Source: an uncultured Candidatus Saccharibacteria bacterium | GTDB lineage: Bacteria > Patescibacteriota > Minisyncoccia > UBA6257 > 1-14-0-10-44-23 | Reading direction: 5' to 3' | DNA: 59,546 bases | NCBI GenBank assembly: GCA_964641225.1 | Contig: CAZXKC010000006.1 | Location: 1-59,546 of the forward strand | Shown here: piece by piece, positions 19,632 to 43,602 of the stretch | Layout of the letters: every line of letters begins with the position of its first letter | How positions within the stretch are numbered: the stretch's first letter is position 1 | Translations under genes and position numbers: made by a program | The notes under the pieces: generated by a model | Told to the model about the DNA's origin: nothing | Seen by the model: only the letters and a program-made list of their open reading frames with translations | Databases searched by the model: none

Positions 19632-19679
19632 ATATACGTTATACTAAAGAAGACTGAGGGCCTAACCAGGAGGTGTGCC

Positions 19680-19934
19680 ATGGCCAAGGGTCGTCTGCAC
19701 CGGCTGATGCAGGTGCTTCCTGCCGGCTTGTCCGGCTACGTACTGGTTCCTTTCGAGGAATACCAGGAACGTTCGGATCGTCTGCCGCTGAGCGTCGAGC
19801 TCTACGGTGACGATTGGGATCTGGAAGAGACTCCGGAGCCGTCCGTTCGGACGGGTGCGCGTCGTCAGGGCTGTCGTTCCAAGCGACGGCCCTTAGCTTT
19901 TTGTAAGAAAATGGATCCCTCGAAATACTCGTGA
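19680..19934 (+). CDS. Hypothetical protein (GC-rich cassette D)
   Basis: 84 aa. AGGAGGTG lies 5 nt before the ATG. Confidence 0.5.
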   Translation: MAKGRLHRLMQVLPAGLSGYVLVPFEEYQERSDRLPLSVELYGDDWDLEETPEPSVRTGARRQGCRSKRRPLAFCKKMDPSKYS

Positions 19935-19938
19935 CGAC

Positions 19939-28392: not shown

Positions 28393-28596
28393 GATAGCGG
28401 GTCGAGGATTTGTAGTATGCTCTGTGGTAGTATAGTGGCACAGATTTTATGCCCGGTGCGACAGCTGCGATCTCTCCGCGATCCTGTTCCGTACTGGCAC
28501 ACATAGAGTCTGAGACGCATTAACATTCTTTATGTATATATCTATGTCGTTTCCCGAGAGTATTATTAACCCCCAATCGCAGTTGTAGCACCGGGT

Positions 28597-30462: not shown

Positions 30463-30567
30463 AAACGCGCAGGTGCCTTTTTTTATCTGGTTTATGAAAA
30501 TATGTTGACCAGAGTTGCGCTGACTGTTTTAAAGATACTAGTCGCCCGGAGGGAATAAGGTACTATG

Positions 30568-30591
30568 GAATATATCATATATGATATATTC
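30568..30591. repeat. 24-bp perfect palindrome GAATATATCATATATGATATATTC (recurrent motif copy 3)
   Basis: Read directly. The ATG of the downstream ORF (30581) is in the palindrome centre. Confidence 0.9.
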
Positions 30592-31042
30592 TCAGCCGAT
30601 TATCGTGACGCTTGTTACCTCTGCTTTACCTATTATTGAGCGCGGTGCCGTGCCGCTCGGACTGGGTCTTGGGCTTTCGCCGTTTGCTACCTACGTTGTG
30701 GTTGTGCTGGGCAATATGCTGCCGGTGCTGCCACTACTTTTTTTCTTGAGATATATATCGCAGTGGGCGATAGAGCATATTCCGCTGGCGCAACGCGCGT
30801 TAACCTGGGTTTTTGATCATGTGCGCAGCAAGGAGGGTAAAAAAATGGAGGCGTTTGGGTTTGGTGCACTTGTGTTGTTAGTCGCAATTCCATCGCCAGT
30901 GACGGGAATATGGACCGCCAGCGTGGTTGCTTATCTTATTAAGATGCCGATTAAAAAAGCATTTTTTGCAATTTTGCTGGGCGTTTTGATCGCCACTGCG
31001 TTGCTCTTGGCAGGCACACTTGGTATCATTAAGCTACTTTAG
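30581..31042 (+). CDS. Small membrane protein, COG2426 / putative small multidrug export family
   Basis: 153 aa, 4 TM segments. The N-terminal LPIIERGAVPLGL motif resembles this family. Confidence 0.55.
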   Translation: MIYSQPIIVTLVTSALPIIERGAVPLGLGLGLSPFATYVVVVLGNMLPVLPLLFFLRYISQWAIEHIPLAQRALTWVFDHVRSKEGKKMEAFGFGALVLLVAIPSPVTGIWTASVVAYLIKMPIKKAFFAILLGVLIATALLLAGTLGIIKLL

Positions 31043-31044
31043 CT

Positions 31045-31788
31045 ATGAAACTTCTTATCGCAAACTGGAAAGAAAATCCGCTGACTGCAGCCGAGGCTAT
31101 GGCGCTTGCAAAGGCCTCCGACGTAGAGGGTGTTGTTGTCTGTCCGCCGCACGTATTTATCGGTGCCGCTGTAAAAACACTCAAGAAGGCTGCGCTTGGT
31201 GCTCAGGATGGATTTTATGAACCGCAGGGTCCGTTTACGGGCGAGGTTTCAATGGCTCAGCTTGCTGGAGTTGGGGTGCGTTATGTGATCATTGGCCATT
31301 CTGCGCGGCGCGCGCTCGGTGAGGATGATACGATTGTTGCCAAAAAAGTTGCCGCTGCATTTGAGGCCGGTCTTATCCCGGTGTTATGTATCGGGGAGAC
31401 AAAAGAAGATCACGATGCCGGGCGTACAAAAGAGGTGATTGATCGTCAGTTGCGAGCCGCATTTTCTCGCATTCCTGCAGAGCATAGCGGCGCTGCTAAA
31501 GAGGCAATTATTACCTACGAACCAGTCTGGGCGATTAGTACAAATCAGACGCCAGGGGTGACTCCGGTTTCTGACAGTCCGGCCTCGGCGCAAACGATTG
31601 TTCGATACTTGGAGGGAATTGTGCGTGGCCTGCCGATCAGTCCAAAATTTATGTATGGCGGTTCAGTTAATGAAGAGACGCTTGAAGGATTTCTAGCGTG
31701 TCCGGAGTTTAGCGGGGCGCTTGTTGGAGCGGCGAGTTTGCGCGCCGACGAATTTAAAAAAATGATTAAGATTGCGCAGAAGCTTTAG
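31045..31788 (+). CDS. tpiA: Triosephosphate isomerase
   Basis: ANWKEN, IIGHSARR, CIGET, YEPVWAI and YGGSV motifs. Confidence 0.92.
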   Translation: MKLLIANWKENPLTAAEAMALAKASDVEGVVVCPPHVFIGAAVKTLKKAALGAQDGFYEPQGPFTGEVSMAQLAGVGVRYVIIGHSARRALGEDDTIVAKKVAAAFEAGLIPVLCIGETKEDHDAGRTKEVIDRQLRAAFSRIPAEHSGAAKEAIITYEPVWAISTNQTPGVTPVSDSPASAQTIVRYLEGIVRGLPISPKFMYGGSVNEETLEGFLACPEFSGALVGAASLRADEFKKMIKIAQKL

Positions 31789-31861
31789 ATTTTGTACCTG
31801 TAACATTGTCGGGATTTTGTCTGTTATACTTAGGACAGAAACATAATTATTTATTATTTCT

Positions 31862-32641
31862 ATGGCGACACAGTCGACACATGATTATTCAGTAAAATCA
31901 ATTTTTTGGTATCTCCTTAACGGAGTGCTTGTTGTAGTAACTGTTTTTGGGCTCATGGGCGTAGGAACTCTTGTTCGGTACAGTAACGCGATTGCGCCGA
32001 GCCGCACGATTCAGGTGAGCGGCGAGGGCAAGGTAGATATTGTTCCGGATGTGGCCACAATTTCAGCCTCTGTTGTTACCCGCGGTTCTGATGCAAATAA
32101 AGTACAGACTGAGAGTACGCAGAAAATGAACGCTGCTGTTGCCTTTGTCAAAAGCCAGGGTGTGCCGACGGCTGATATAAAGACAACCGGATTTAATTTG
32201 TATCCGACTAGTCGCTACGAACCAAACACCGGCGCTCAAATCCCAACCGGTTTTGAGGCAACACAGACGATCACCATCAAAGTCCGCGGCATTGATCAGA
32301 GTGCTCAAAAGGCGAGTATGATTGCTGGTGGTTTGGTGCCTGCCGGTGCAAATCAACTTTCTGGTATTCAGTATGATATTGAAAATCCAGACGCACAGCG
32401 CAACGCCGCTCGCCAGATGGCATTTGATAATGCCTTCGAAAAGGCTCGCAGTATGGCTGCGCAAAACCGAGTTCGTATCGCGCGCGTGATAACGTTCTCA
32501 GAAAGTGCTGATTATGGTGGTCCGATTTACTATGCAAAAGGCGGTATTGCCATGGACGCTGCCGCGCCGTCTGCTCCAAGTATAGAGCCGGGCACTCAGG
32601 AGGTGAAAATGAATGTCAGCGTGACCTACGAAATTCGCTAG
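31862..32641 (+). CDS. SIMPL (DUF541) domain protein
   Basis: N-terminal anchor plus IQVSGEGKVDIVPDVA.. and C-terminal EPGTQEV..V.V.YEI, typical of the SIMPL/BP26 family. Confidence 0.75.
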   Translation: MATQSTHDYSVKSIFWYLLNGVLVVVTVFGLMGVGTLVRYSNAIAPSRTIQVSGEGKVDIVPDVATISASVVTRGSDANKVQTESTQKMNAAVAFVKSQGVPTADIKTTGFNLYPTSRYEPNTGAQIPTGFEATQTITIKVRGIDQSAQKASMIAGGLVPAGANQLSGIQYDIENPDAQRNAARQMAFDNAFEKARSMAAQNRVRIARVITFSESADYGGPIYYAKGGIAMDAAAPSAPSIEPGTQEVKMNVSVTYEIR

Positions 32642-32742
32642 TTGTTTTTACGGGGTTTGGCGCTATACGGGAACGAGGTTCTATCCCGTTCTGCGCCAAA
32701 CCCTTTCTGCTTTTTTCTCGTAGTACGTTATACTATGAGTGT

Positions 32743-33021
32743 ATGAGGTATTTTTTAGCACTCTTTCTTCTGATTATTACCGTATTTATCGGCGCGCAAA
32801 GCTACCGTCTTTTGGTGCAGCGCGCTGATTATACCAAGCATACGCAGGAGTTGGAGGGTCAGGCGCATGAGATCTCTGCTGAAAATACTGCGCTCGCCAA
32901 AGATATTCAGTTTTACCAAAATCCGGCAAACGCAACCAAAGAGCTGCAGTCAAAAGTAAATTATCGTAAGCCCGACGAACAGATTATTATTCTGGTACCT
33001 GCCGATGACACTACGCGTTAG
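32743..33021 (+). CDS. Septum formation initiator (FtsB/DivIC-like) protein
   Basis: 92 aa. One TM segment followed by a coiled coil. TATACT lies 8 nt upstream of the ATG. Confidence 0.6.
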   Translation: MRYFLALFLLIITVFIGAQSYRLLVQRADYTKHTQELEGQAHEISAENTALAKDIQFYQNPANATKELQSKVNYRKPDEQIIILVPADDTTR

Positions 33022-33194
33022 TTGCAAATGTATGTCTGCTAACGTTAGAATAGGTCAATCTTAGTGCAGGATTAGCTATGCTGGGTTTTTGTAAGCAGGC
33101 AAAAACGGGCAGCTTCTGATAAACTATTCGATTGAAAGCTGCCCGGGTATATGCGTGATCTTTCCCAAGCCGGGCAGTAGAGATGTGAGAAGGT

Positions 33195-33265
33195 GCGGGC
33201 GTAGTATAATGGCAGTACGCGACCTTCCCAAGGTTGAGGCGTGAGTTCGATTCTCATCGTCCGCT
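33195..33265 (+). tRNA. tRNA-Gly (anticodon CCC)
   Basis: Hand-folded. Acceptor GCGGGCG/CGTCCGC, anticodon stem CGACC/GGTTG with loop TTCCCAA, T-arm GTGAG-TTCGATT-CTCAT. CCA is not encoded. Confidence 0.85.
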
Positions 33266-33360
33266 CAAAGTAGCTCGCATCACACTACCCGGTAACAGTT
33301 AAGCAACGGCTTCGATTCCCGTATCCTGCTCATGGTACTATAAGCTAACTTTGCTATGCT

Positions 33361-35187
33361 ATGAGGATTTTAATCAACCTCAAACATCCTGTTGTTATTT
33401 TTTTTATCGTTGTACTCCTTGGTCTTACTACGGGCGTAATTGTGTTTGAGCATCATTTTGCGAATCGGTTTTTTCCCGGCATATCGTTAGGCGGTATTAA
33501 TGTTGGCGGAAATACGTATCAGGAGGTGCGCGATAACGCGCAGCGCATTGTTCAGCTGCTTGAACAGGAGGGTGTGCAGGTAGTGCTCACAAGTAAGAAT
33601 GGACAAAAAACAATCGTTATCCCTAAGCGTTCCACCGGGCTGACGCCGGATGTTGTAGTTGAGTATTTTACAATTGGTGATTATAAAAAAGCGATCGACG
33701 ATGCCTTTGCGATCGGCCATACTGGTTCACTGATTACGCGTCTAAAGGAGCAGGTGAGCGTTGTGGTGGGTCGGTACGAAGGTGATTACGCAGTAGTGCC
33801 GCTTGAGGATTCTATTCGGGCATTATTGCAGCGAGAGTCTCATGAGATGCTGCCTCAGCCGGAGGACGCGCGATTTACCGCGACGGCAACACGGGTAACA
33901 TTACTTCCTGAAAAAATTGGCGAGAAGATTGATGTTGACGCAGTTGTTGCCGCACTCCAGGTTGCCGTGCGCGGACTAAAAACAAATCGTTTGCAGGCGC
34001 AGGTTATCGAGATACCCGCAGGTGTAACAGCGGCAAAGATCGAGCCGCTGCGGGACTTTGTTGCTGCGCTGGCAAAAAATGCACCTTTAAAATTATCGTA
34101 TAACGGAAAGATACTGTATTTGGGTGGGGCACGACTTGCCGGGTGGCTGACGGTAGATGCTGCGCAGCCGGGCGTGGTAATTAACGTGGCGCAGGCGCCG
34201 CTTAAGAATTTTGTACGCCAGTATATAGACGGAGATTTACCAGGCGCACCGATCAATAGTCGCTTTGCTATGCAGGGCGGTAAGTTAGTTGAGATTGTGC
34301 CCGGCGTCTCCGGAATAGTTGTTGATACGGCTGCACTTGCTGCTCAACTTGAAGCGCTGCTTAACGCGCGGTATGTCTCTTCGGTATTTAAAGGTCAGAT
34401 ACAAACCGCTGATATTGCCGGCATGGAGATTCCTATTTCCTTTCGGCAGGAGTATCCGCTGATTACCTCGAGTACAATTGCGCAATATAAAATCACAGAT
34501 TTAATTGGTTCGGCAAGCACGAGTTTTAAGGGGAGTACGGCTGATCGAATTGTAAATATTAAGCTTGGTGTTGAGCGTTCGAGTGGTTCGCTGATCGCCC
34601 CGGGCGAAGAGTTTTCTTTGGTTGGTGCTATCGGAGAGGTTACGGAGGAGACCGGATTTACCAAAGAGTACGTGATTAAAGGTGACCGTAGTATTAAAGA
34701 GGCAGGTGGAGGATTGTGCCAATTGGCGACGACGGTATTTCGTGGTGCGCTCAACGCCGGTTTGCCAATAACCGAACGGCAAAATCACAGTTATGTTGTC
34801 GGATATTATGGACCCGGACTGGACGCAACAATTTATGGGCCGCATCCTGATTTAAAATTTGTAAATGATACGGGTCGCTATGTGCTTTTTCAGATGCGTA
34901 CAGAGGGAACTAATTTGATTGCGGAGCTTTACGGAACCTCTGATCACCGCGTAGCGACGACGACCGAGCCTGCGCTTGGTGATTACATCGATCCGCCGCC
35001 GACGCGATATATTCCCGATCTCGAGCTTGCCTGGGGTGCTGTTGATTGTCATGACCAGCCTCGAAAAGGGTTGACTGCGGTTGCGACGACAACGGTGACC
35101 TATGCTGACGGGACTGTTCGTACCAAGGTGTTTAATAGTGTGTATACCCCGTGGCCAAAAGTGTGCCTTGTAGGTATTAAAAAATAG
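33361..35187 (+). CDS. VanW family protein
   Basis: 608 aa. N-terminal TM segment. C-terminal VanW core (GGGLCQLATTVFRGALNAGLPITERQNHSY). Confidence 0.85.
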   Translation: MRILINLKHPVVIFFIVVLLGLTTGVIVFEHHFANRFFPGISLGGINVGGNTYQEVRDNAQRIVQLLEQEGVQVVLTSKNGQKTIVIPKRSTGLTPDVVVEYFTIGDYKKAIDDAFAIGHTGSLITRLKEQVSVVVGRYEGDYAVVPLEDSIRALLQRESHEMLPQPEDARFTATATRVTLLPEKIGEKIDVDAVVAALQVAVRGLKTNRLQAQVIEIPAGVTAAKIEPLRDFVAALAKNAPLKLSYNGKILYLGGARLAGWLTVDAAQPGVVINVAQAPLKNFVRQYIDGDLPGAPINSRFAMQGGKLVEIVPGVSGIVVDTAALAAQLEALLNARYVSSVFKGQIQTADIAGMEIPISFRQEYPLITSSTIAQYKITDLIGSASTSFKGSTADRIVNIKLGVERSSGSLIAPGEEFSLVGAIGEVTEETGFTKEYVIKGDRSIKEAGGGLCQLATTVFRGALNAGLPITERQNHSYVVGYYGPGLDATIYGPHPDLKFVNDTGRYVLFQMRTEGTNLIAELYGTSDHRVATTTEPALGDYIDPPPTRYIPDLELAWGAVDCHDQPRKGLTAVATTTVTYADGTVRTKVFNSVYTPWPKVCLVGIKK

Positions 35188-35205
35188 GGAAGTCATAAAA
35201 ACGAG

Positions 35206-35233
35206 CGCGCCCCAGGTCCTTGGCCTGGGGCGT
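35206..35233. terminator. Shared hairpin terminator between the convergent vanW-like and RT genes
   Basis: CGCCCCAGG-tccttgg-CCTGGGGCG. On the plus strand it is followed by TTCGCTATTT. Confidence 0.55.
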
Positions 35234-35236
35234 TCG

Positions 35237-36313
35237 CTATTTGAAGATGAATCCGTCGTCTGGCGGGTTGACGCAGTCGTCCCATGTATCCCAGAAGGTG
35301 TCTGGGTTGATGCGCATCCCAGATCCTTGGCGGAGTTGTTCTTCTTGGAATTTGAGTTTGCTGTAGAGTGAGTCGATCTCTCGGTCGAGCTGGTTCTTGC
35401 CTGGTTCACCGAGTTGCTTGAAAGTGCCGTGCAGGCCGTGAATCGCAGCGATGTGCTCGTAGCCCAGCTCTTCGTTGGCTCCATAGACAGCCTGGTAGAG
35501 GAGCCACCGAAGCTTTTTGCGGAAGTCTTGGCTAAGCGCCAGCCGTGCCGCTTTATGCCATCCGTTCCAGAAGAGGAGAATGCCGGTGATGCAAATCGGG
35601 TGTCCGGCGAACAGATCACCAGAGAACGACTTTTTCTCATTCAGCCTGAATCCAGCAGTCCGTACAGCGTCGCGGATCATTCGCTTAGCTGCCTCTGGAA
35701 TCCGGTTTCGTGAGGAGGCCGTGATGTCGTCGGCATACCGCGTGATCGTGATCGCGAAGCGGCGGGCGATTGCTTCGAGCTGCCGGTCAAGGCGAGCGTC
35801 GCAGTAGAGATTGAAGAGCGTGGGTGCCGATGGAGAGCCGAAGGGCAATCCACCGGACTCAGTCAGGCAGTGCTGAGCCAGGAAGTGACGCCAGAGCTCA
35901 ATCGATTCTCCCTGGCCGATTGCCCGCAAGCCGAGCCCGTCAATGATCTGGGCGAGTTCGATGCCCGGCGTGCTGTCGTATGCGTCTTTGATGTCGATGC
36001 TGTAGAAGAACCGATTACGCCAGTGTCGCTTCACGTTTGCTAGCGGTGACCTACCAGGCCAGAAGGCTGTTGCGATCGAGTCCTTGCGCTCATGAATGGT
36101 CCTGAAGCCGAACACGAGCGTGGAATTGAGATGTCTGTGCAACTTTCGCATCGCGAAGTTTGGCCGGTGTTCTCGTCGCACTTTGTTTTTGTGTGCGGCC
36201 TCAACGATTCTCCATGCAGGAGCCGGTACTTCGCTGATTTCACCGGTTTCCTTGTTTTGCCAAAAGCCCTTGAGGTCATCAAGGGCCCTGGTCGGATTAA
36301 ATACCAGGTCCAT
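35237..36313 (-). CDS. Reverse transcriptase, retron-like / defence-associated RT clade
   Basis: 358 aa. RT motifs in order: FYSIDIKDAYDS (motif A), GGLPFGSPSAPTLFNLY (B), ITRYADDITAS (C, YADD), GFRLNEKKS (D/E) and ICITGILL (VTG-like motif 7). GAGGTG RBS. No endonuclease, maturase or other fused domain. Confidence 0.85.
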   Translation of the reverse strand: MDLVFNPTRALDDLKGFWQNKETGEISEVPAPAWRIVEAAHKNKVRREHRPNFAMRKLHRHLNSTLVFGFRTIHERKDSIATAFWPGRSPLANVKRHWRNRFFYSIDIKDAYDSTPGIELAQIIDGLGLRAIGQGESIELWRHFLAQHCLTESGGLPFGSPSAPTLFNLYCDARLDRQLEAIARRFAITITRYADDITASSRNRIPEAAKRMIRDAVRTAGFRLNEKKSFSGDLFAGHPICITGILLFWNGWHKAARLALSQDFRKKLRWLLYQAVYGANEELGYEHIAAIHGLHGTFKQLGEPGKNQLDREIDSLYSKLKFQEEQLRQGSGMRINPDTFWDTWDDCVNPPDDGFIFK

Positions 36314-36397
36314 GATTCACCTCGGGTTTTGTGATGTGCCAGACAACGAGCCGTGCACGCATTGACCTTACCTCAGGAGAGGGCGTATTTGCAACTA

Positions 36398-36435
36398 TAA
36401 AAATAGTAAACCCTCCTGCCGATGCGACAGGAGGG
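36398..36435 (-). terminator. Intrinsic terminator-like hairpin between the upstream RNA region and the RT ORF
   Basis: CCCTCCTG-9 nt-CAGGAGGG followed on the minus strand by TTTACTATTTTT. Confidence 0.55.
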
Positions 36436-36761
36436 TGTGATGGCGCTAGGGGGTTATACGCGCATTACCCATGAGTGTTTGGATTTTGGGCACCCCGGTT
36501 GGGGTTGAGTTTCTAGCGTGAATCGCGACTGATCGCGGCGACGACCATCGTACTCCGATGTCCGATCTTCGCGAGGAGGTCGTCCTTCCTCGTCCTGATC
36601 CTGGTCGGAAACCATCTGCGCCGGCGATCTCGAACAAACGCTCCCTTGCGAGAGCAACACCAGCCACCAGCGTGACCAGCGAGAGCTTGCGCTCCAATGC
36701 CCGCATCCTCCGCTCACCTTACGCCACAAGCGGCCCATCTTGTCCGCTGCGAACCCCCTTC
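36398..36761 (-). ncRNA. Candidate RT-associated non-coding RNA region (~360 nt, GC-rich)
   Basis: A putative minus-strand promoter, TTGCGC-17 nt-TACATT, lies at 36796-36768. Many local hairpins, including GCTCTC-GCAA-GGGAGC, CGCGA-TCAG-TCGCG and AACCCC-AACC-GGGGTG. Three overlapping ORFs in different frames and strands are not protein-like. The 5' boundary is approximate. Confidence 0.35.
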
Positions 36762-36798
36762 ACATTTAATGTAACTTTTTTACTGAGGATGCGCAATC

Positions 36799-36827
36799 TT
36801 GCCTAGACTGTATTTTTTCTGTAGCAT
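36799..36827 (+). promoter_or_regulatory. Candidate promoter for tRNA-Thr (TTGCCT-17 nt-TAGCAT)
   Basis: Hexamers and spacing read directly. It would give a ~120-nt hairpin-rich leader before the tRNA. Confidence 0.3.
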
Positions 36828-36953
36828 ACAGTAACCGCGCCGATATAAGCCCGTCGTTCTCCAAAGGAGAACGAATCAGGGCGGGCTTGTCGGTAGATGA
36901 TACGGCTCCGCCATTTTGTAGCCGCACTCCAAGGAGTGCCCCGATAGTTCAGT

Positions 36954-37029
36954 GCCACCTTAGCTCAGCTGGTAGAGCAATACTTTCGTAAAGTAGAGGT
37001 CCCGAGTTCGACTCTCGGAGGTGGCTCCA
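36954..37029 (+). tRNA. tRNA-Thr (anticodon CGU), CCA encoded
   Basis: Hand-folded. Acceptor GCCACCT/AGGTGGC, D-arm GCTC-AGCTGGTA-GAGC, anticodon loop TTCGTAA, T-arm CCGAG-TTCGACT-CTCGG, then T-CCA. Confidence 0.88.
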
Positions 37030-37772
37030 TGGATATTTCTCAGCTTACAGAAAAATTGACTGGTCAGTACGATAAAGGCAACGTGCACATTACTGCGTAT
37101 GCCGGTACGGGTGGTGATGACGCCAAGGATTGGGCGCAGATGCTGCTTACGATGTATGCGCGATTTAGCGGTGCGCAGGGGTGGGCGGTTGGTCAGATTG
37201 ATGACAACACGATTGAAATTAAAGGACAGTATGCGTATGGTCTTTTAAAAAAAGAGGCGGGTGTACACCGGCTTGTGCGCATTTCGCCGTATGATGCGAA
37301 GAAGTTGCGCCACACAAGTTTTGCGCTTGTTGAGGTGGTGCCGATTTTGCCAGAGATGGCGCGCAAATTAACTATCCCGCCGGAAGATTTACGTGTTGAA
37401 ACCGCGCGTGCCGGTGGACCCGGTGGGCAGAATGTAAACCGTCGCGAAACTGCGGTACGTATCGTACATTTACCAACAGGTATCGCGGTGACATGTCGCG
37501 AGGAGCGTGGCCAGCTACAAAACAAAGAGAAGGCGATGGTTATGCTCAAGAGCAAGCTCTTGCATTTACAAGAGACCTACCAGAAGGCGACGCTTGCTGA
37601 TTTGCGTACGCATGCCAAACCGGACTTTGGTAGCCAGATTCGTTCATATGTGCTCCACCCGTATAAAATGGTCAAAGACCACAGAACAAAGGCGGAAACA
37701 ACGCGCGCTGAAGAGGTTTTGAAAGGTGAATTGGATAAATTCATTGAGGCGGAGCTGACTGAATCTGTATAA
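37029..37772 (+). CDS. prfB: Peptide chain release factor 2 lacking the N-terminal domain 1
   Basis: 247 aa. SPY (SPF-equivalent) motif followed by RHTSFA, GGQ motif (GGPGGQNVN) and C-terminal GSQIRSYVL. The alignment to RF2 starts at about residue 110 of the E. coli protein. The ATG shares its A with the tRNA CCA end. Confidence 0.8.
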
Positions 37773-37790
37773 ATACGGTATTATTACCGT

Positions 37791-39116
37791 ATGCCTTCGT
37801 TTGCCCAGAAACATCGTTTTCTTTTGCTTAGCATTGCAATGCTTGCAACGCTGATTGCTGTTGGTGTTGTGACCTATCATTTTGCCGCACTTGCAGAGCA
37901 GGAGAAGTTGGTTGAACGTACGCAAACTGTTGCGAGCGCGCTCGGCGCCTCGGAGATTGCGCAGTTAAGCGGCGATATTACTGATTTAGATACGCCGGCG
38001 TATCAATTATTGAAAGATAGATTGATCAGAATCGGTGTGGTCAATACCGACGTTGTCTCGGTGTATGTAACGGGATATAGGCAAGGTACGGTATTTTTTT
38101 ACGCAGATTCTGTGGCTGAACACGACGTTGATGAGGCGGCGCCCGGGTTAGAGTATCCCGAGGCGACACCTTTATTTAAGAGTGTTTTTACGGAGGGCAA
38201 CACAACTTTTGAGGGACCGCTCGCTGATCGCTGGGGAACGTGGGCCTCGGGTCTGGTGCCTGTGCTTGATCCGATTACCGGTGCTGTGATCGCCGCGGTT
38301 GGTATGGACATCGACGGCAACGTCTACCGATTGCGCGTGGTTACTCGCACTGCTGTACCTGTATCGCTTCTCGGAATGGTCTTTTTGCTGTGCTTTATTG
38401 TATATTTCCGATATACAAAAAATAAAGAGCTGCTTGATCTTAAGTCGAAATTTGTCTCAATTGCATCTCATGAGTTGCGTTCTCCAATCTCCGGTATTAT
38501 CTGGGCCACAGAATCACTCAAGACGACGACTGCGATTGATCCGGATATTAAAAAGACGATTGAGTTAGTTGGAAGTACCGGCAGACATCTGCTATCGACG
38601 GTTAATGAGATTCTTAATTTATCTGCCCTTGAAGGAGCGCATGTGCAAAAAGTTACTCGAGGGCTCGTAAGCATGAAGGCCTTGGTTGTTGAGATTATCG
38701 AGAGCCTGGTGCTTGTTGCGCAAGAGCGCGATGTTGAAATTGTTATCGACGCTTCGCTTACAGATTCAGTCGAGATTGTTTGTGATCGCGAAAAAACTAA
38801 GCGGATAGTATCGAATGTGTTAACAAACGCGCTTAAGTATTCATCGAAGGGAGGGACGGTGACGATTGCATATCGAGCCGAGCGCGGAGTACCTGTCGTT
38901 AGTGTCTCTGACCAGGGTATGGGTGTTCCGGTCAGCGAGGAGAGCCGTATTTTTAAAGGTGATTTTCGTGCCGGCAATGCCGCGCAGTCAGAGATTGCCG
39001 GAAGCGGCATGGGGTTGCATTTGGCGCGCGAACTCATGGAGCGTCAGGGTGGCACGATTCGGTTTGAGTCTTCGGCAGGTAAGGGAACGACATTTTTTAT
39101 TCGATTTAAGCCCTAG
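37791..39116 (+). CDS. Sensor histidine kinase
   Basis: Two TM segments flank an extracytoplasmic domain. H-box SHELRSP. HATPase N/G boxes (NALKYS, GSGMGL). Confidence 0.85.
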   Translation: MPSFAQKHRFLLLSIAMLATLIAVGVVTYHFAALAEQEKLVERTQTVASALGASEIAQLSGDITDLDTPAYQLLKDRLIRIGVVNTDVVSVYVTGYRQGTVFFYADSVAEHDVDEAAPGLEYPEATPLFKSVFTEGNTTFEGPLADRWGTWASGLVPVLDPITGAVIAAVGMDIDGNVYRLRVVTRTAVPVSLLGMVFLLCFIVYFRYTKNKELLDLKSKFVSIASHELRSPISGIIWATESLKTTTAIDPDIKKTIELVGSTGRHLLSTVNEILNLSALEGAHVQKVTRGLVSMKALVVEIIESLVLVAQERDVEIVIDASLTDSVEIVCDREKTKRIVSNVLTNALKYSSKGGTVTIAYRAERGVPVVSVSDQGMGVPVSEESRIFKGDFRAGNAAQSEIAGSGMGLHLARELMERQGGTIRFESSAGKGTTFFIRFKP

Positions 39117-39147
39117 TCTGCAAAAAATGAAGTATAGAGTATACTGA

Positions 39148-39540
39148 ATGCATATGGCATACACTATTCTTACAATCGACGATGATGCATTGATGCGTGC
39201 TTCTATCGTGAATGCCTTTAAGGCTGAGCGTGATTTTTCGGTGATTGAGGCGGCCGGCGGTAAAGACGGATTGTCGCTCGCGCTATCAAAACACCCGGAT
39301 CTTATTTTGCTTGATATTGCGATGTCGGATTTAGATGGTTTGGCGGTATTGCGTCAGCTTCGCCAAGACGTTTGGGGTAAGACGGCGCTCGTTATATTGC
39401 TTACAAGCCTAACGGTTTCTGACATGATTATGGAGGAGGTTGCGACTCAGGAGCCGGCGTTTACCTTGCGTAAAGATGAATGCAGCATCGCTGATGTTGT
39501 CGGTAAAGTGAAGGAGGCGCTGAAAATTGGTAGTTTGTAG
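39148..39540 (+). CDS. Stand-alone response regulator receiver domain
   Basis: CheY-like fold with IDDD, LLDIAMSDLDG and LLTS. No output domain. Confidence 0.85.
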   Translation: MHMAYTILTIDDDALMRASIVNAFKAERDFSVIEAAGGKDGLSLALSKHPDLILLDIAMSDLDGLAVLRQLRQDVWGKTALVILLTSLTVSDMIMEEVATQEPAFTLRKDECSIADVVGKVKEALKIGSL

Positions 39541-39635
39541 TAGGTAGTGAGTAGAGAGAAATATGCTATAATTTTACGAGTGAGGCCTATTTTTGCTTTG
39601 CTACTCCCTACAAACTACGCACTATACATTCGAAA

Positions 39636-40319
39636 ATGATTCAATTTATTAATGTTTCTAAAATTTACGAAAATCGAGCCGTTGGGCTCGAGGACGTAAG
39701 TTTTACTATAAAGCCGGGTGAGTTTGTCTCGCTCGTTGGCCGATCAGGCGCCGGTAAAAGCACTCTTATTAAGCTGCTTATTGGCGAGGAGCATCCGAGC
39801 AAGGGCAGAATCTTGTTTGGCGCATACGAAGTTAACAAGCTTAAAAGCAACGACATGAGCCAGCTGCGTCGCCAAATTGGTATTGTATTTCAAGATTTTC
39901 GATTGCTGCCCAATAAGACTGCGTTTGAAAACGCTGCCTTTGCGCTTGAGGCGGGGGGGCGGCCTCAGTCAGAAATTGAAGAATTCGTGCCACAGGTACT
40001 TGAAATGGTTGGGTTGGCCAGCAAAAAAAATCATTTTCCGCACCAGCTTTCCGGCGGAGAAAAACAACGTGTTGCAATTGCTCGCGCTATGATTCACCAC
40101 CCGGCTGTGATTATTGCTGATGAGCCGACCGGAAACTTAGACGATATTAACAGCGAAGAGATTATTAAACTTCTGTTACGTATCAATGAATTAGGCACAA
40201 CTGTGCTGCTTGCAACACACAATAAAGATATTGTGAACAAGCTGAAGCGGCGCGTGATTTCGATGGTAGATGGCCGGATTGTGCGAGATGAGCCAAACGG
40301 GAAATACATCATAATGTAA
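39636..40319 (+). CDS. ftsE: Cell division ATP-binding protein FtsE
   Basis: Walker A GRSGAGKST, signature LSGGEKQR, Walker B IIADEPTG. Followed by ftsX. Confidence 0.9.
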   Translation: MIQFINVSKIYENRAVGLEDVSFTIKPGEFVSLVGRSGAGKSTLIKLLIGEEHPSKGRILFGAYEVNKLKSNDMSQLRRQIGIVFQDFRLLPNKTAFENAAFALEAGGRPQSEIEEFVPQVLEMVGLASKKNHFPHQLSGGEKQRVAIARAMIHHPAVIIADEPTGNLDDINSEEIIKLLLRINELGTTVLLATHNKDIVNKLKRRVISMVDGRIVRDEPNGKYIIM

Positions 40320-40380
40320 TTACAAATAACAGATTATAAATTACAAATGGAAAACAGAGCGTTCAATCAAATTTTTTCTT

Positions 40381-40408
40381 TGCAATTTGCAATTTGCAAT
40401 TTGTAATC
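40381..40408 (+). repeat. Tandem heptamer TGCAATT x3 (+ TGTAATC) in the ftsE-ftsX spacer
   Basis: Read directly. ATTACAAAT also occurs twice upstream (40319, 40340) in inverted orientation to ATTTGTAAT at 40399. TATAAT follows, 8 nt before the ftsX ATG. Confidence 0.8.
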
Positions 40409-40422
40409 TATAATTACCCCGC

Positions 40423-41331
40423 ATGGCAACAAGCTTCCTGCGAATTCTTAAATACGGATTTCAAAGTTTTTGGCGAAACGGCTGGCTTTCAATGGCAACT
40501 GTTTTGGTTATGGTACTCGCGCTGATGACGCTTGAGGGGTTGTTGTTGTTTGATGTGATGACGAGTGCTGCAGTTACGTCTATTCAAGACAAGATAGATA
40601 TTGCCGTGTACTTTAAACGCAGCTCGGCTGAAGACGACATGCTTGCACTTAAGAAGGCTGTTGAAAAGTTGCCGGAAGTAAAATTGGTTGAATACGTTTC
40701 GAGCGATGAAGCGCTTGAGGATTTTAAGGCCAAGCACGCAAATGATCCGACGATTAATCAGGCACTTGCTGAGCTTAGTCAAAATCCGTTGCTTGCATCT
40801 ATTAATATCAAGGCTAACGATCCAAATCAGTATGCAGGTATTGCAAGTTATCTTGATAAGAGTGCGCCCAGCGGCTTGATAGAAAAGGTAACGTATAGTC
40901 AAAATAAGGGCGCCATTGATCGTCTTAATAAGTTCGTTGATACCCTGAACCGGATGGGGCTTGCAACAACGCTCTTTCTTGCGTTTGCGGCAAGTCTTGT
41001 TGCATTTAATACGATCCGCTTGGCCATTTATTCTAATCGCGACGAGATCGGTATTATGCGCTTGGTAGGTGCCTCAAACACGTTTATTAAGGGTCCGTAT
41101 TTGGTTACGGGCATTATGTACGGCTTTTTTGGCGTCCTGGTTGCACTTATTTTTATGGCGCCGGTTATGAACATTGTTGATCCATACATAAGCCACCTCG
41201 TGCCCGAGGTGCATCTTGAAACATATTTCTACGCTAACATTTTCTCGCTCTTCGGATACATGCTTCTCTTTGGAGCCGCGCTTGGATTTATTAGTAGCTG
41301 GATCGCTACGCGTCGCTACCTTAAAGTCTAG
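40423..41331 (+). CDS. ftsX: Cell division permease FtsX
   Basis: 302 aa. TM1, large extracytoplasmic loop and three C-terminal TM segments. Gene order with ftsE. Confidence 0.88.
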   Translation: MATSFLRILKYGFQSFWRNGWLSMATVLVMVLALMTLEGLLLFDVMTSAAVTSIQDKIDIAVYFKRSSAEDDMLALKKAVEKLPEVKLVEYVSSDEALEDFKAKHANDPTINQALAELSQNPLLASINIKANDPNQYAGIASYLDKSAPSGLIEKVTYSQNKGAIDRLNKFVDTLNRMGLATTLFLAFAASLVAFNTIRLAIYSNRDEIGIMRLVGASNTFIKGPYLVTGIMYGFFGVLVALIFMAPVMNIVDPYISHLVPEVHLETYFYANIFSLFGYMLLFGAALGFISSWIATRRYLKV

Positions 41332-41332
41332 A

Positions 41333-42970
41333 TTAGGATTTTTCAGGATCATATCCTTCTTCTGCGGGAAGGACGCTTTTTTGTTTCTTGAAATATCGAA
41401 CTGCAAGCCATGCGCCGCCAGCAACTGCGGCTACGACCCCTGCGGTTACAATGTAGGCAGTGGTGTGTGTAGGGGGCGTGAGCAATACAGTTTTTGCCGG
41501 TGCAACTTTTATAAACGTACCATCTTCATTAGCGGCGTAGACAATGATTGTATGTGTGCCGTCTGCCAAGCCTTCGATGTCTTTACTGGTTGTTCCTGCT
41601 GGAACAGTAATTGTTTTTTCGAGCTTATGGTTCTGATCAAAAATATCAATACGATATCCGTATTGCGATCCGCCTCCCTGCGCGGCGGGCCAGCTTACGT
41701 TCGTACCGCCACCCTGCCCCGGGTTTGTGTTGATGCCGGGATTACTCGAAGAACCTCCCGGTGATCCATCTGGAGGATTATTCGACGAGCCGCTCGTGCC
41801 TGGTCCTGTTGCGCCTCCCGGAGTGGTTGAGGTTGATGCGGGCGTCGTACTACTCGGAGTACCGGGTGGGTTGCTCGTTCCTCCTGGGTTGTTGTCAGTT
41901 GGCGGATTACTTGGAGGATTTGAAGGTGGGTTGCCTGGCGGAGTTGAGGGTGGCGTTGAGGTTGATGCGGGAGGATCTTGAGGCGGCGGGTTTGTTGGTG
42001 GTTCGGTGGACGGAGTAGCTGATCCGGCCGGCGTCCTAAACGCAATTGTATACGTAGTTAATACAATTTGGTTACCCGGGCTTGAAAACATATCGGCAAA
42101 ATAATTGGTTGCTCCCTGAAGCCCGCTTACAATAACGGTGTGTTCGAGCTCAAGTGTCTGATCTGTGTTGCCGGCGATCGTATAGAGCGGGTTAAGCTGA
42201 GTGCGAATGCCTACGCGTGCATCAGTGGCGACATTAGTGGTCCAGGCAACTGTCACGGTGCTTGGGGTGCTCGTGACAATTCGCGCATTGGTGATTATGA
42301 TGCTATTTTCTTGCTCTTGTATTGTTGATGTTGAATTAGACGGTGCTTGAATGGTGCTGCTTGCATCACTGTTGTATGCGCCCTGGCTTATCGGCGCATA
42401 CAGCGCCAGCTTAAAAGTGAAGGGTTGTTGGTTTTGGCCGATTTTTGCGACACCGTTTTGGTATTCGCTTGTGAAGCTTCGATTGTGTTCGATTGATAAA
42501 ATACGGTCTGCATAATACATGCCCAGACCGGAGAGGTTGGAAGTAATTTGTAGGCTGTATGTTTCACCAGTGATAACCGGGATCGGGGTTTGGATTTCAA
42601 AATGAACTTTATTACCTCCGGCGATCTGTGCGAGATGGGGAATCGAGGCGTTGATAATTCCAATCTCTTGCTGGCTTGCATCAAATAATGTCAGCGTAAC
42701 GGGGCCTGATGAGCCGGTGTTATCAACCCATAGATCAAGTCCTGTCAGCGTTGTCGTCAGTGGCGATTGGAATATTTCATAGACTGGTCCTGCGGCCGTA
42801 TTCATGGCAAAGCGTTGTGATTGCCAGGAGTCAGGGGCAAATTCAAAAATAACGCTGTCGGCATGGGCGAGCAGAGGAGTAACAATAAGTAGCAACGTTA
42901 ATAAGGCAGTGAAACGCTTCACCTTCTTATCATACCACTTGCTAATGAGGCTGGCGGGTGTAATCACCAA
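41333..42970 (-). CDS. Secreted, C-terminally anchored protein with a Pro/Thr/Ser/Gly-rich low-complexity region
   Basis: The ORF opens at TTG. The in-frame GTG at 42922 gives a signal peptide (MKRFTALLTLLLIVTPLLAHA) and removes the overlap with the upstream gene. Fn3/Ig-like beta regions and a C-terminal TM segment. Confidence 0.7.
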   Translation of the reverse strand: MVITPASLISKWYDKKVKRFTALLTLLLIVTPLLAHADSVIFEFAPDSWQSQRFAMNTAAGPVYEIFQSPLTTTLTGLDLWVDNTGSSGPVTLTLFDASQQEIGIINASIPHLAQIAGGNKVHFEIQTPIPVITGETYSLQITSNLSGLGMYYADRILSIEHNRSFTSEYQNGVAKIGQNQQPFTFKLALYAPISQGAYNSDASSTIQAPSNSTSTIQEQENSIIITNARIVTSTPSTVTVAWTTNVATDARVGIRTQLNPLYTIAGNTDQTLELEHTVIVSGLQGATNYFADMFSSPGNQIVLTTYTIAFRTPAGSATPSTEPPTNPPPQDPPASTSTPPSTPPGNPPSNPPSNPPTDNNPGGTSNPPGTPSSTTPASTSTTPGGATGPGTSGSSNNPPDGSPGGSSSNPGINTNPGQGGGTNVSWPAAQGGGSQYGYRIDIFDQNHKLEKTITVPAGTTSKDIEGLADGTHTIIVYAANEDGTFIKVAPAKTVLLTPPTHTTAYIVTAGVVAAVAGGAWLAVRYFKKQKSVLPAEEGYDPEKS

Positions 42971-43601
42971 GATGAGCGTGATCGTTGATAGTGATTAGGT
43001 TCCAGTCCTTCTTTTTGTTTTTTTCAAGCGTAGCTACAGTAATACCGGTATTGTTAAGAGATGTTGCGTAAAAGAAATCCGATGCTATTTTACCGCTTAC
43101 ATCCTCTCCGTGAATCATAACTGCGAATAATACCTTGAGTAGTCGTGCGTGACTCACCACCAGAATATATTGGTAGTCTAATGTCGCAAGATGATTAAGA
43201 AATTCTGCCGCGCGAGTTCTAATTTCTTGAAAGCTTTCTTCGTCGCTATGCTTCCAGCTTGCGTTTGCGCCTGCGGCCCAATGCTGCTCGATAAGATCAC
43301 GTACTGCAACTGCCTCCGGGTCTTTTTTGAGTTTGCCGTCAAGACTGCTGGGCCATCTGAATTCGCCGATAAGATTATCCTTTCTGATTTGTAATGATTT
43401 ATCCTCAGCAATCGTTTCTGCAGTTTGCTTTGCGCGCGCATACGGGCTGGTGATTATGTGATCTACAGGAATAGATTCAAAACGTGCTGCTAATATTCGG
43501 GCTTGTTCGCGTCCTTTTTCAGTCAGGGGTTCATCTGGGGTTTGCTGCGTTCCATTTTGATTAGAAACACATTCTCCATGTCTTACAAAATATACTTTCA
43601 T
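42942..43601 (-). CDS. Histidine phosphatase family protein (phosphoglycerate mutase-like)
   Basis: N-terminal VRHGE motif and distal VSHA motif. Confidence 0.8.
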   Translation of the reverse strand: MKVYFVRHGECVSNQNGTQQTPDEPLTEKGREQARILAARFESIPVDHIITSPYARAKQTAETIAEDKSLQIRKDNLIGEFRWPSSLDGKLKKDPEAVAVRDLIEQHWAAGANASWKHSDEESFQEIRTRAAEFLNHLATLDYQYILVVSHARLLKVLFAVMIHGEDVSGKIASDFFYATSLNNTGITVATLEKNKKKDWNLITINDHAHLGDYTRQPH

Positions 43602-43602
43602 A

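What the first reader, a model, noticed from the sequence alone, without database searches (positions are those of the whole stretch)
35206..36835. Orphan retron-like reverse transcriptase with a ~360-nt GC-rich upstream RNA region and no recognisable effector
The 358-aa minus-strand ORF carries the full RT palm motif series, including ITRYADDITAS and an ICITGILL (VTG-like) motif 7. That pattern matches retron and retron-related defence RTs, not group II intron or DGR RTs.

It has no fused effector domain and no adjacent effector gene. Its neighbours are a convergent VanW gene and a tRNA-Thr.

Upstream on the same strand lies ~450 nt of visibly GC-rich sequence with three features:
- a plausible promoter (TTGCGC-17-TACATT);
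- many short GC hairpins;
- an intrinsic-terminator-like hairpin (36398-36435) about 85 nt before the RT start.

Only mutually overlapping, non-protein-like ORFs occur in that region. RT plus ncRNA alone is the architecture of minimal RT defence systems such as retrons and the ncRNA-templated DRT classes. I could not see canonical a1/a2 retron repeats by eye.

The cassette also differs from the host backbone in composition and in using an SD (GAGGTG). I am not aware of such an RT module being described in a reduced, CPR-like genome, so I consider it the most likely undescribed system here.
Basis: partly seen in the sequence, partly recalled or inferred. Interest (0 to 1): 0.85.

Follow-up and report, generated by a model that had tools for sequence, protein, structure and literature searches.

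The report
Effector-less retron in a CPR bacterium
A tiny bacterium carries a two-part retron (a reverse transcriptase plus its own folded RNA) with no toxin partner, and this pair has been kept intact in several related lineages, which suggests retron-type elements can work without the usual third component.

Summary
Window 35237-36313 (-) encodes an intact 358-aa reverse transcriptase (RT). By sequence and predicted fold, its closest solved relatives are all retron RTs. It matches no defined retron type.

The ~370 nt upstream is a conserved, non-coding, highly structured RNA. Compensatory changes in relatives support this pairing.

RT and RNA occur together, between VanW and tRNA-Thr, in five contigs of related Parcubacteria-like bacteria. 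Both are absent together from two relatives with the same gene order.

More distant RT relatives sit in other genomic contexts. They have 12-15 bp a1/a2 repeats ending 20-35 nt before the RT start. No locus has a conserved effector gene.

Selection is purifying. RT dN/dS is 0.2. The RNA is 97% identical where the RT's synonymous sites differ by 26%.

Best reading: a self-contained two-component retron-type element that makes cDNA from its own RNA, probably with an accessory (defence-like) role. The cDNA product and the function are inferred, not shown. I rate it a new variant of a known kind, of moderate-to-high interest.

The parts
35237..36313 (-). Retron-type reverse transcriptase gene, 358 aa
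   Evidence: - ORF; RVT_1 E=1e-18.
- Best PADLOC matches are retron RT_III-A, II-A and IX at about 90 bits.
- All 13 PDB sequence hits at E<=0.001 but the weakest (8bgj, a non-retron RT domain) are retron RTs.
- AlphaFold model pLDDT 86. The top 12 Foldseek PDB hits are retron RTs.
- Invariant across 25 relatives: H97 (N-V-K-R-H, region X), D107, Y193-x-D195-D196, G244 (I-T-G, RT7).
- dN/dS is 0.2 between L001 and L002.
35208..35232 (-). Terminator-like hairpin after the RT gene
   Evidence: 9-bp stem with 8 GC pairs, followed by a T-run. An equivalent GC hairpin plus T-run follows the RT in L001 and L002.
36318..36323 (-). Shine-Dalgarno-like GAGGTG, 4 nt before the RT ATG
   Evidence: Sequence. 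RT genes of relatives have AAGGAGG at the same place, while the neighbouring host genes checked show no such motif apart from prfB copies whose upstream overlaps the tRNA-Thr 3' end.
36365..36394 (-). Candidate internal promoter for the RT: TTGCAA-18-TAAGGT
   Evidence: Sequence. L001 has TTGCAA-17-TAGGGT and L013/L014 have TAGGGT at the same place. It is below the consensus-scan threshold, so this is inferred only.
36400..36436 (-). Intrinsic-terminator-like hairpin ending the ncRNA (12-bp stem, then T-run)
   Evidence: Found. A hairpin in the same position in L001, L002, L013 and L014 has a different sequence but keeps its pairing.
36448..36455 (-). a2 arm (AACCCCCT) of the closing inverted repeat
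   Evidence: Inverted repeat I13. It covaries with a1 in four lineages. It is homologous to CTAACCCC(C) a2 arms of 12-15 bp repeats in L016-L018.
36752..36759 (-). a1 arm (AGGGGGTT) at the predicted 5' end of the ncRNA
   Evidence: It lies about 9 nt downstream of the -10-like TACATT.
36460..36751 (-). Body of the ncRNA
   Evidence: **Elements**
- Hairpin H1: 36751-36725.
- Long-range stems P2 (36724-36720 with 36464-36460), P3 (36717-36713 with 36475-36471) and P4 (36708-36699 with 36491-36481).
- Short hairpins H2 (36695-36682), H3 (36681-36658) and H4 (36655-36640), msr-like.
- Long hairpin H5 of about 100 nt (36629-36531), msd-like.
- Hairpin H7 (36505-36492).

**Support**
- MFE z-score is -3.8 for the window and -5.4 for L001.
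- The same architecture appears in each sequence's own fold.
- 16 compensatory pairs between the window and L001/L002, and 14 between L013 and L014.
- On a hand-curated alignment of P1, H2, H3 and H4: 97% of cells paired, 19 of 35 pairs changed on both sides, and 0 of 500 shuffles reached that.
- A covariance model of H3-H4 finds an independent copy upstream of the L015 RT, E=0.02.
36768..36796 (-). Candidate promoter of the ncRNA: TTGCGC-17-TACATT
   Evidence: Sequence. The position is conserved in L001/L002 and L013. It scores 8 of 12 and is below the scan threshold, so it is inferred.

Best explanation
**What it is**
This is a self-contained, two-component retron-type retroelement. It consists of one gene for a retron-clade reverse transcriptase and, just upstream on the same strand, its cognate structured non-coding RNA of about 360 nt. 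The pair sits as a 1.65-kb insert between VanW and tRNA-Thr in a Parcubacteria-like CPR genome.

**Shown by computation**
- The RT is intact, has all catalytic residues and the retron-specific region X and region Y signatures, and is under purifying selection.
- The RNA is non-coding and more conserved than the RT's synonymous sites.
- The RNA is closed by an a1/a2 duplex. It contains three short hairpins (H2-H4, msr-like) followed by a long hairpin (H5, msd-like).
- RT and RNA are gained and lost as one unit.
- No effector gene or domain travels with them in any of 12 contigs (at least 10 distinct loci) examined.

**Inferred mechanism**
- The RNA is made from its own promoter and mostly ends at its own terminator, so it accumulates in excess.
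- The RT is translated from read-through or from a weak internal promoter, using a strong SD that host genes lack.
- The RT binds the H2-H4 hairpins.
- The RT primes on the 2'-OH of a G beside the a1/a2 duplex and copies the H5-H7 part into an msDNA-like cDNA of roughly 100-150 nt.

**Inferred role**
The RT-RNA-cDNA complex itself is the functional output. It works like the single-protein RT+ncRNA defence systems (DRT2 or DRT9 style) but is built from retron parts. The role is accessory and probably anti-phage.
For: **RT identity**
- PADLOC: all top hits are retron types.
- NCBIfam: retron_St85_RT E=3e-25, against group II 1e-6 and Drt2 8e-5.
- PDB sequence hits are, all but the weakest of 13, retron RTs.
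- Fold: the top 12 Foldseek hits are retron RTs.
- H97 of NVKRH and G244 of ITG are invariant in 25 relatives.

**RNA**
- Conserved, with indels that are not multiples of 3.
- Its ORFs are not conserved.
- L001 vs L002: the RNA has 11 differences in about 400 nt, against pS=0.26 in the RT. RT dN/dS is 0.2.
- Folding z-scores are -3.8 and -5.4.
- Compensatory changes are seen.
- Homologous perfect a1/a2 repeats of 12-15 bp, 178-197 nt apart and ending 20-35 nt before the RT start, occur in L015-L018.
- L015 has two RNA copies with different but internally complementary a1/a2 arms and the same H3-H4 core.

**Unit behaviour**
- RT plus RNA lie between VanW and tRNA-Thr in the window, L001, L002, L013 and L014.
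- Both are absent from the syntenic relatives L009/L010 and L011/L012.

**No effector**
- Flanking genes are housekeeping and are shared with RT-less relatives.
- No conserved neighbour appears in L005-L008 or L015-L018.
- The RT model shows no extra domain; residues 336-358 are disordered.
Against: - No cDNA product, branching G or phenotype can be shown with these tools. No G is conserved directly after a1 across lineages.
- The RNA is longer and more branched than classical msr-msd. It has extra long-range stems P2-P4, and a terminator separates it from the RT, which is unusual for retrons.
- All characterised defensive retrons need an effector, so an effector-free mechanism has no precedent within the retron clade.
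- Only contigs were available, so a partner encoded elsewhere in these genomes cannot be excluded.
- The covariation alignment across the two subfamilies was hand-fitted to the structure, which biases it.
- The promoters are below consensus thresholds.
Confidence: 0.55

Rival explanations
1. It is an ordinary tripartite retron whose toxin or effector is encoded elsewhere in the genome, or is a host protein. The RT-msDNA complex would restrain or sense through that distant partner.
For: Every characterised defensive retron has an effector (PMC7736814, PMC8632793). Only contigs were examined, so distant genes are unseen. Host genomes of this type are small, and defence genes can be scattered.
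Against: RT plus RNA alone appears in at least five unrelated genomic contexts as well as at the VanW locus. A module that moves without its partner would not function on arrival. No conserved neighbour lies within +/-5-8 kb in any locus.
Confidence: 0.2
2. It is a domesticated or residual retron with a non-defence role, or none. Under this reading it is inherited vertically at a fixed locus, as type XIII retrons are in myxobacteria, and its msDNA serves a housekeeping or regulatory purpose.
For: - The chromosomal position is the same in four divergent lineages (VanW 52-56% identical, RT 34-54%).
- Both RT and RNA are under purifying selection.
- There is no toxin partner.
Against: - The module is missing from two relatives with identical gene order, one of them closer to the window than L001 is (VanW 71% and 61%). 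It is therefore dispensable.
- RT GC3 is 0.67 against 0.43-0.51 for neighbours, and the RT uses an SD foreign to the host. Both point to a foreign origin.
- The locus is a hot spot for other selfish or defence-like genes: HNH, GIY-YIG, PDDEXK, a DGR-like RT.
Confidence: 0.13
3. The small HNH endonuclease gene found between the ncRNA and tRNA-Thr in some relatives is the effector. Under this reading the window copy is a retron that has lost it.
For: An HNH gene of 150-167 aa lies next to the ncRNA, divergently oriented, in L002, L013 and L014. HNH nucleases are known retron effector parts (type I-A).
Against: - The same HNH is present in L009/L010, which have no RT or RNA. It is absent from the window and from L001, which is almost identical to HNH-bearing L002.
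- Its best defence-library match is 'homing endonuclease', E about 1e-9.
- Its GC is 0.43 against 0.60 for the RT.
- No HNH lies near the RT in L015-L018.
- The window RT and RNA remain intact.
Confidence: 0.07
4. The RT belongs to another class (group II intron, DGR, or UG/DRT), or the upstream RNA is an unrelated housekeeping RNA that merely lies next to it.
For: The RNA has its own promoter-like and terminator-like signals. RT plus ncRNA is also the layout of DRT2 and DRT9. Fold hits include group II and DRT RTs further down the list.
Against: - No Rfam family other than tRNA matches.
- There are no TR/VR-like repeats.
- The group II HMM scores 27.7 bits against a cutoff of 300, and Drt2 scores 22 against 390.
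- No DRT model is among the top PADLOC hits.
- The RNA is always next to the RT and is absent when the RT is absent.
Confidence: 0.03

Closest known systems
Bacterial retrons (Mestre et al. 2020 classification, types I-XIII; e.g. Ec86/Eco1, Ec78/Eco7, Ec67/Eco2)
   Same: - The RT is retron-clade by HMM, by PDB sequence hits and by fold.
- It has the region X N-x-x-x-H and the RT7 x-T-G signatures.
- The ncRNA is directly upstream on the same strand and closed by an a1/a2 inverted repeat.
- Short hairpins are followed by a long hairpin.
- The module is about 1.6-2 kb and has a patchy distribution.
   Different: - There is no effector gene or fused domain in any of 12 related contigs.
- The RT reaches only about 90 bits on every type model (NCBIfam 89 against a cutoff of 235), so it fits no defined type.
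- The RNA is about 300 nt between a1 and a2, with extra long-range stems.
- A terminator-like hairpin plus 135 nt separates a2 from the RT start.
- The host is a CPR bacterium, where DGRs make up about 80% of known RTs (PMC8632793).
Single-protein RT+ncRNA defence systems (DRT2, DRT9; UG/Abi RTs)
   Same: The system is one RT gene plus an upstream structured ncRNA with no separate effector. The cDNA product itself would be the functional output.
   Different: - The RT is not in the UG/Abi clade (Drt2 HMM 22 bits against a cutoff of 390).
- No stop-free reading frame is conserved in the template region, so a Neo-like de novo gene is not supported.
- The RNA has retron-type a1/a2 arms.
Type XIII retrons of myxobacteria (Mx162, Mx65)
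   Same: Apparent long-term retention at one chromosomal locus within a lineage, and a long RNA/msDNA.
   Different: Type XIII has two accessory genes. The PADLOC RT_XIII match here covers only part of the protein, at 70 bits. The module here is absent from some close relatives.

Membership tests
Retron | RT belongs to the retron/retron-like clade | tested here: met
   PADLOC top 25 hits are all retron RT models. NCBIfam best is retron_St85_RT, E=3e-25. PDB sequence hits are retron RTs apart from the weakest (8bgj). The Foldseek top 12 are retron RTs.
Retron | Region X NAXXH motif between RT2 and RT3 (H most conserved; PMC7736814) | tested here: met
   The window has A-N-V-K-R-H (residues 92-97) and L001 has N-I-E-R-H. 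H97 is invariant in 25 relatives. The A position is V or I, so this is a variant.
Retron | VTG triplet in RT7 / region Y (G most conserved) | tested here: met
   I-T-G at residues 242-244. G244 is invariant in 25 relatives.
Retron | Contiguous ncRNA upstream on the same strand, flanked by a1/a2 inverted repeats | tested here: met
   - 36759-36752 pairs with 36455-36448.
- The arms covary: GUU/AAC, GUC/GAC, CUG/CAG and UUGG/CCAA in four lineages.
- Relatives have homologous 12-15 bp repeats.
- Two differently armed copies occur in L015.
Retron | msr with short stem-loops and msd with a long hairpin | tested here: inconclusive
   Three short hairpins (H2-H4) followed by a hairpin of about 100 nt (H5) are predicted in all lineages, and H2-H4 covary. 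The extra stems P2-P4 and hairpins H1 and H7 are not classical. The msr/msd boundary is unknown.
Retron | Branching G and 2'-5' linked msDNA product | not testable with these tools
   No G is conserved immediately 3' of a1 across lineages. Relatives L016-L018 end a1 in UUAG; from memory, Ec86's a1 ends the same way. This needs msDNA extraction or sequencing.
Retron | Third component: effector gene or fused effector domain (tripartite system) | tested here: not met
   - The insert relative to RT-less syntenic relatives is RT plus RNA only.
- Flanking genes are housekeeping.
- The RT has no extra domain.
- No neighbour is conserved across 12 contigs.
Retron | Assignment to one of the 13 described types | tested here: not met
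   The best PADLOC type models all score about 85-91 bits with no clear winner. The NCBIfam score is 89 bits against a cutoff of 235. The nearest proteins among 1.84 billion representatives are 37-38% identical.
Group II intron | Intron RNA domains around the ORF and a maturase-type RT | tested here: not met
   No Rfam intron hit. TIGR04416 scores 27.7 bits against a cutoff of 300.
Diversity-generating retroelement | TR/VR near-repeat pair next to the RT | tested here: not met
   No direct repeat of 35 nt or more in 28000-44000.
DRT2 / UG-type RT+ncRNA systems | RT of the UG/Abi clade | tested here: not met
   Drt2 NCBIfam scores 22 bits against a cutoff of 390. No DRT/UG model is in the PADLOC top 25.

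The most novel reading that the evidence does not exclude
A lineage of retron-clade RTs works as a complete system with only its ncRNA. The RT-RNA-cDNA complex would itself be the effector or sensor, with no toxin partner. This minimal retron would be maintained by selection in ultra-small CPR bacteria. Retron parts would then have converged on the single-protein DRT logic, or would represent the ancestral effector-free state of retrons.
Probability: 0.3. Interest if true: 0.8.

Novelty: new variant of a known kind. Interest (0 to 1): 0.58.

Why it matters
**Why it would matter**
- Retron biology is currently framed as a toxin held in check by RT-msDNA. A conserved, selected retron-type pair with no toxin asks what msDNA can do on its own. 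It also offers a compact RT+RNA pair of about 1.6 kb for cDNA production.
- It extends retron-type elements into CPR/Parcubacteria, where DGRs dominate the known RTs.
- It gives a concrete RNA family to test: a1/a2, the H2-H4 core, and a long variable hairpin, with natural variants and one genome carrying two RNA copies.

**Why it might not**
If a distant effector exists, this is simply a new retron type.

Tried and rejected
**Hypotheses tested and rejected**
- *Protein-coding upstream region.* Rejected. The 86-aa and 94-aa ORFs have no tblastn match in L001/L002 (E>1), and indels are not multiples of 3.
- *Known RNA family.* No Rfam hit at E<=10 in the window region or at E<=5 in L013.
- *DGR.* No TR/VR repeats.
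- *Neo-like stop-free template frame, as in DRT2.* No frame is consistently open across lineages.
- *tRNA-linked integrated island.* No integrase and no duplicated tRNA-Thr 3' end.
- *VanW as effector.* Rejected. It is present with the same neighbours in RT-less relatives and across Parcubacteria, and has no PADLOC hit.
- *Phage origin.* Only matches at 28% identity or less in 50,697 phage records.

**Searches that added nothing**
- Two exact-pattern scans of JGI metagenome contigs with the most conserved RNA blocks found nothing.
- The GTDB representative-genome scan found only two RTs at 26% identity.

**Analyses that did not resolve**
- MAFFT alone could not align the two RNA subfamilies. 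I used per-sequence folds, a hand-curated helix alignment and a small covariance model. The model did not reach L016-L018.
- The neighbour-joining tree of RTs is star-like. It does not resolve whether the two VanW-locus RT clades are sisters.
Full report
**1. What is in the window**

The minus strand carries a 358-aa ORF at 35237-36313. It matches Pfam RVT_1 at E=1e-18. A terminator-like hairpin follows it at 35232-35208.

VanW (33361-35187, +) is convergent with it. tRNA-Thr(CGU) lies at 36954-37029 (+), and a short release-factor gene starts at 37029.

Between the RT start and the tRNA lie about 640 nt. This stretch contains:
- an SD-like GAGGTG (36323-36318);
- a terminator-like hairpin (36436-36410 plus a T-run);
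- a GC-rich stretch;
- the promoter-like pair TTGCGC (36796-36791) - 17 nt - TACATT (36773-36768).

The cassette has GC 0.559, against 0.477 for the rest of the window. Only 1.6% of equal-sized windows reach that value. RT GC3 is 0.67, against 0.43-0.51 for neighbouring genes. The seven neighbouring genes checked that do not overlap the tRNA lack an SD-like motif.

**2. Which kind of RT**

- PADLOC's top 25 models are all retron RTs. The best are III-A at 2e-26, II-A and IX, and all score about 85-91 bits.
- NCBIfam gives retron_St85_RT at 3e-25, but only 89 bits against a cutoff of 235. Group II intron RT scores 1e-6 and Drt2 scores 8e-5.
- All 13 PDB chains matched by sequence but the weakest (8bgj, a non-retron RT domain) are retron RTs: Ec86, Ec78, Ec67, Ec83, Kva2.
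- An AlphaFold model built on 25 relatives has pLDDT 86 and pTM 0.82. It shows no extra domain, and residues 336-358 are disordered.
- Its 12 best Foldseek PDB matches are retron RTs. Group II, DRT9 and DRT2 RTs come later in the list.
- The two signatures that Mestre et al. use for retron RTs (PMC7736814) are present as variants. Region X reads N-V-K-R-H, and RT7 reads I-T-G. H97 and G244 are invariant in 25 relatives, as are D107 and Y193-x-D195-D196.

The RT is therefore retron-clade, but it fits none of the described types.

**3. How rare it is**

Among 5.8 billion protein clusters, only two proteins are close to it. P0002 is 53% identical. P0003 is 59% identical over its C-terminal part.

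An exhaustive HMMER pass over 1.84 billion representatives finds the next relatives at 37-38% identity (P0050, P0051). No close relative was found in 185,579 species-representative genomes. Two exact-pattern RNA scans of JGI metagenome contigs also found nothing.

**4. The module is a unit at a fixed locus**

Contigs that carry the module:
- P0002 (L001) sits convergent with a VanW gene that is 56% identical to the window's.
- P0003 (L002) is in fact an intact 367-aa RT. It sits next to tRNA-Thr and a release factor that is 86% identical to the window's.
- Two further RTs, 36% and 34% identical, occupy the same slot between VanW and tRNA-Thr in L013 and L014.

Relatives that lack the module:
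- L009/L010 have a VanW 71% identical to the window's, closer than L001's. L011/L012 have 61%.
- Both have the same gene order: MreC, PBP2, TIM, SIMPL, DivIC, tRNA-Gly, VanW, tRNA-Thr, prfB, HisKA, response regulator, FtsE, FtsX.
- Both have no RT and no trace of the upstream RNA.

So the insert is RT plus RNA only, about 1.65 kb. It is dispensable to the host. The hosts are Parcubacteria/Paceibacteria-like, judging from the names on VanW homologs.

**5. The upstream region is an RNA, not a gene**

- The window and L001/L002 align over the whole region, with indels of 2, 4, 7 and 18 nt.
- The window's 86-aa and 94-aa ORFs have no protein-level match in L001 or L002.
- Between L001 and L002, the RT differs at 10.9% of sites (pS 0.26, dN/dS 0.2). 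The RNA has only 11 differences in about 400 nt. The RNA sequence is therefore under stronger constraint than the RT's synonymous sites.
- Predicted folding is more stable than shuffled sequence: z=-3.8 for the window and -5.4 for L001.

**6. Structure of the RNA**

Each sequence folded on its own gives the same plan:
- a closing duplex P1;
- further long-range stems P2-P4;
- three adjacent short hairpins H2, H3 and H4, where H4 carries a GNRA tetraloop in all four lineages and H2 in the window and L014;
- a long hairpin H5 of about 100-120 nt;
- one or two small hairpins;
- a terminator-like hairpin.

RNAalifold finds 16 pairs with changes on both sides between the window and L001/L002. It finds 14 between L013 and L014.

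I also made a hand-curated alignment of P1, H2, H3 and H4 from the four lineages. On it, 97% of cells pair and 19 of 35 pairs change on both sides. No shuffle out of 500, and no slid register, comes close. That alignment was fitted to the structure, so the numbers lean in its favour.

An independent check is a 46-position covariance model of H3-H4. It finds a matching element just upstream of the distant RT in L015, at E=0.02 in 243 kb.

**7. The a1/a2 repeat exists**

The window's best long-range inverted repeat is AGGGGGTT (36759-36752) with AACCCCCT (36455-36448). The arms are 296 nt apart.

Eight base pairs alone are within chance. Two lines of evidence support it:
- The distal positions covary. 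They read GUU/AAC in the window, GUC/GAC in L001, CUG/CAG in L013 and UUGG/CCAA in L014.
- More distant RT relatives in other genomic contexts carry perfect repeats of 12-15 bp with the same core. Examples are GTTGGGGGTTAG/CTAACCCCCAAC in L018, TAAAGGGGTTAGAGT/ACTCTAACCCCTTTA in L016, and GGATTTGGGGTTAG/CTAACCCCAAATCC in L017. The arms are 178-197 nt apart and end 20-35 nt before the RT start codon. That is the classical retron layout.

L015 carries two RNA copies, one before and one after the RT. They share the same H3-H4 core but have different, internally complementary arms (GAGACCTAGGGA/TCCCTAGGTCTC and GGATCCGGAG/CTCCGGATCC) and different long-hairpin parts.

The window's RNA is thus an enlarged member of a retron-type RNA family. 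A terminator-like hairpin and a possible internal promoter (TTGCAA-18-TAAGGT, 36394-36365) have come to lie between a2 and the RT.

**8. No effector**

- Genes within about 8 kb on either side of the window cassette are housekeeping. They give only generic ATPase or kinase matches in PADLOC. They are shared with RT-less relatives.
- Across L005-L008 and L015-L018, the RT's neighbours differ every time.
- An HNH gene of 150-167 aa sits between the RNA and tRNA-Thr in L002, L013 and L014. Several facts count against it as an effector:
  - The same gene is present in RT-less L009/L010.
  - It is absent from the window and from L001, which is nearly identical to L002.
  - Its best match is a 'homing endonuclease' model.
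  - Its GC is 0.43, against 0.60 for the RT.

I treat the HNH gene as an independent selfish gene, with a small residual chance that it is a facultative partner.

**9. Other readings**

- No Rfam family other than tRNA matches.
- There is no TR/VR repeat.
- No stop-free frame is conserved in the template region, so a DRT2-style created gene is not supported.
- Phage records hold only matches at 28% identity or less.
- There is no integrase and no duplicated tRNA end.

**10. Mechanism and what remains inferred**

Shown by computation:
- an intact, selected, retron-clade RT;
- a selected, structured, a1/a2-closed RNA;
- co-inheritance of the two;
- absence of any partner gene nearby.

Inferred:
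- the RNA is transcribed from about 36761 to about 36400;
- the RT recognises H2-H4;
- the RT primes from a 2'-OH of a G at the a1/a2 junction and copies the H5 side into msDNA.

No G is conserved right after a1, so the branch point is unknown. The role is the weakest step.

RT plus RNA alone recurs in many contexts, which a system with a separate partner should not do. I therefore favour a self-sufficient two-component system whose cDNA complex is the output. It would work like DRT2/DRT9-type systems while belonging to the retron clade. A distant effector is the main rival.

Vertical versus horizontal history is unresolved:
- The same locus in four lineages suggests inheritance.
- The atypical GC3, the foreign SD and a star-like RT tree allow transfer between relatives.

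**11. Novelty**

Full-text searches found no paper describing retrons in CPR/Patescibacteria. A review notes that DGRs make up about 80% of CPR RTs. It also notes that about 25% of catalogued retron RTs have no assigned partner (PMC8632793). Effector-less retron RTs are therefore known as database entries but are not characterised.

I rate this a new variant of a known kind, with interest 0.58.

Noticed in passing
L015:6757-6974 and L015:~8060-8320: One RT (7001-7939) is flanked by two ncRNA copies. They share the same H3-H4 core but have different, internally complementary a1/a2 arms and different long-hairpin parts. The gene caller's 108-aa ORF (8059-8385) is probably the second RNA.
   Followed up: partly
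L002:1989-2444, L009:7850-8353, L013:5896-6348, L014:~5950-6393: A small Cys-rich HNH gene (best match 'homing endonuclease', E about 1e-9) sits next to tRNA-Thr in some relatives. It occurs with or without the RT. It is absent from the window, L001 and L011/L012.
   Followed up: partly
L014:215-1303 (-): A second, unrelated RT of 362 aa (PADLOC generic 'RT' 172 bits, then Cas1_IIIb and UG17 models) lies with two unknown ORFs between prfB and FtsE. Together with the other inserts, this suggests the region is a hot spot for retroelements and selfish genes.
   Followed up: no
window 37029-37772 (+) and 36954-37029 (+): The release-factor gene is short (247 aa). Its Pfam PCRF match begins at profile position 86. 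The gene starts on the last base of tRNA-Thr. Relatives have the same short form (244-252 aa).
   Followed up: no
window-wide; L001, L013-L018: Host genes in these CPR contigs lack SD-like motifs upstream, apart from prfB copies whose upstream overlaps the tRNA-Thr 3' end. The RT genes almost always have AAGGAGG or GAGGTG 4-10 nt before the start; L001/L002 are the exception.
   Followed up: partly
L015-L018, about 45-60 nt before a2 and just after a2: The compact relatives conserve a motif (A/G)ACCTCAGCG before a2, and CGCTG immediately after a2. These could pair around the a2 arm. In the window, a possible counterpart is CGCTAG (about 36515) with CTAGCG (36450-36445).
   Followed up: no
window ~17900-20200: This is the only other stretch of the window as GC-rich as the RT cassette (GC about 0.57 in 1.6-kb windows).
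   Followed up: no
L011/L012:4456-5811 and 12300-12644: RT-less relatives carry other small selfish or defence-like genes in the same neighbourhood: PDDEXK_3, GIY-YIG and 23S_rRNA_IVP.
   Followed up: no
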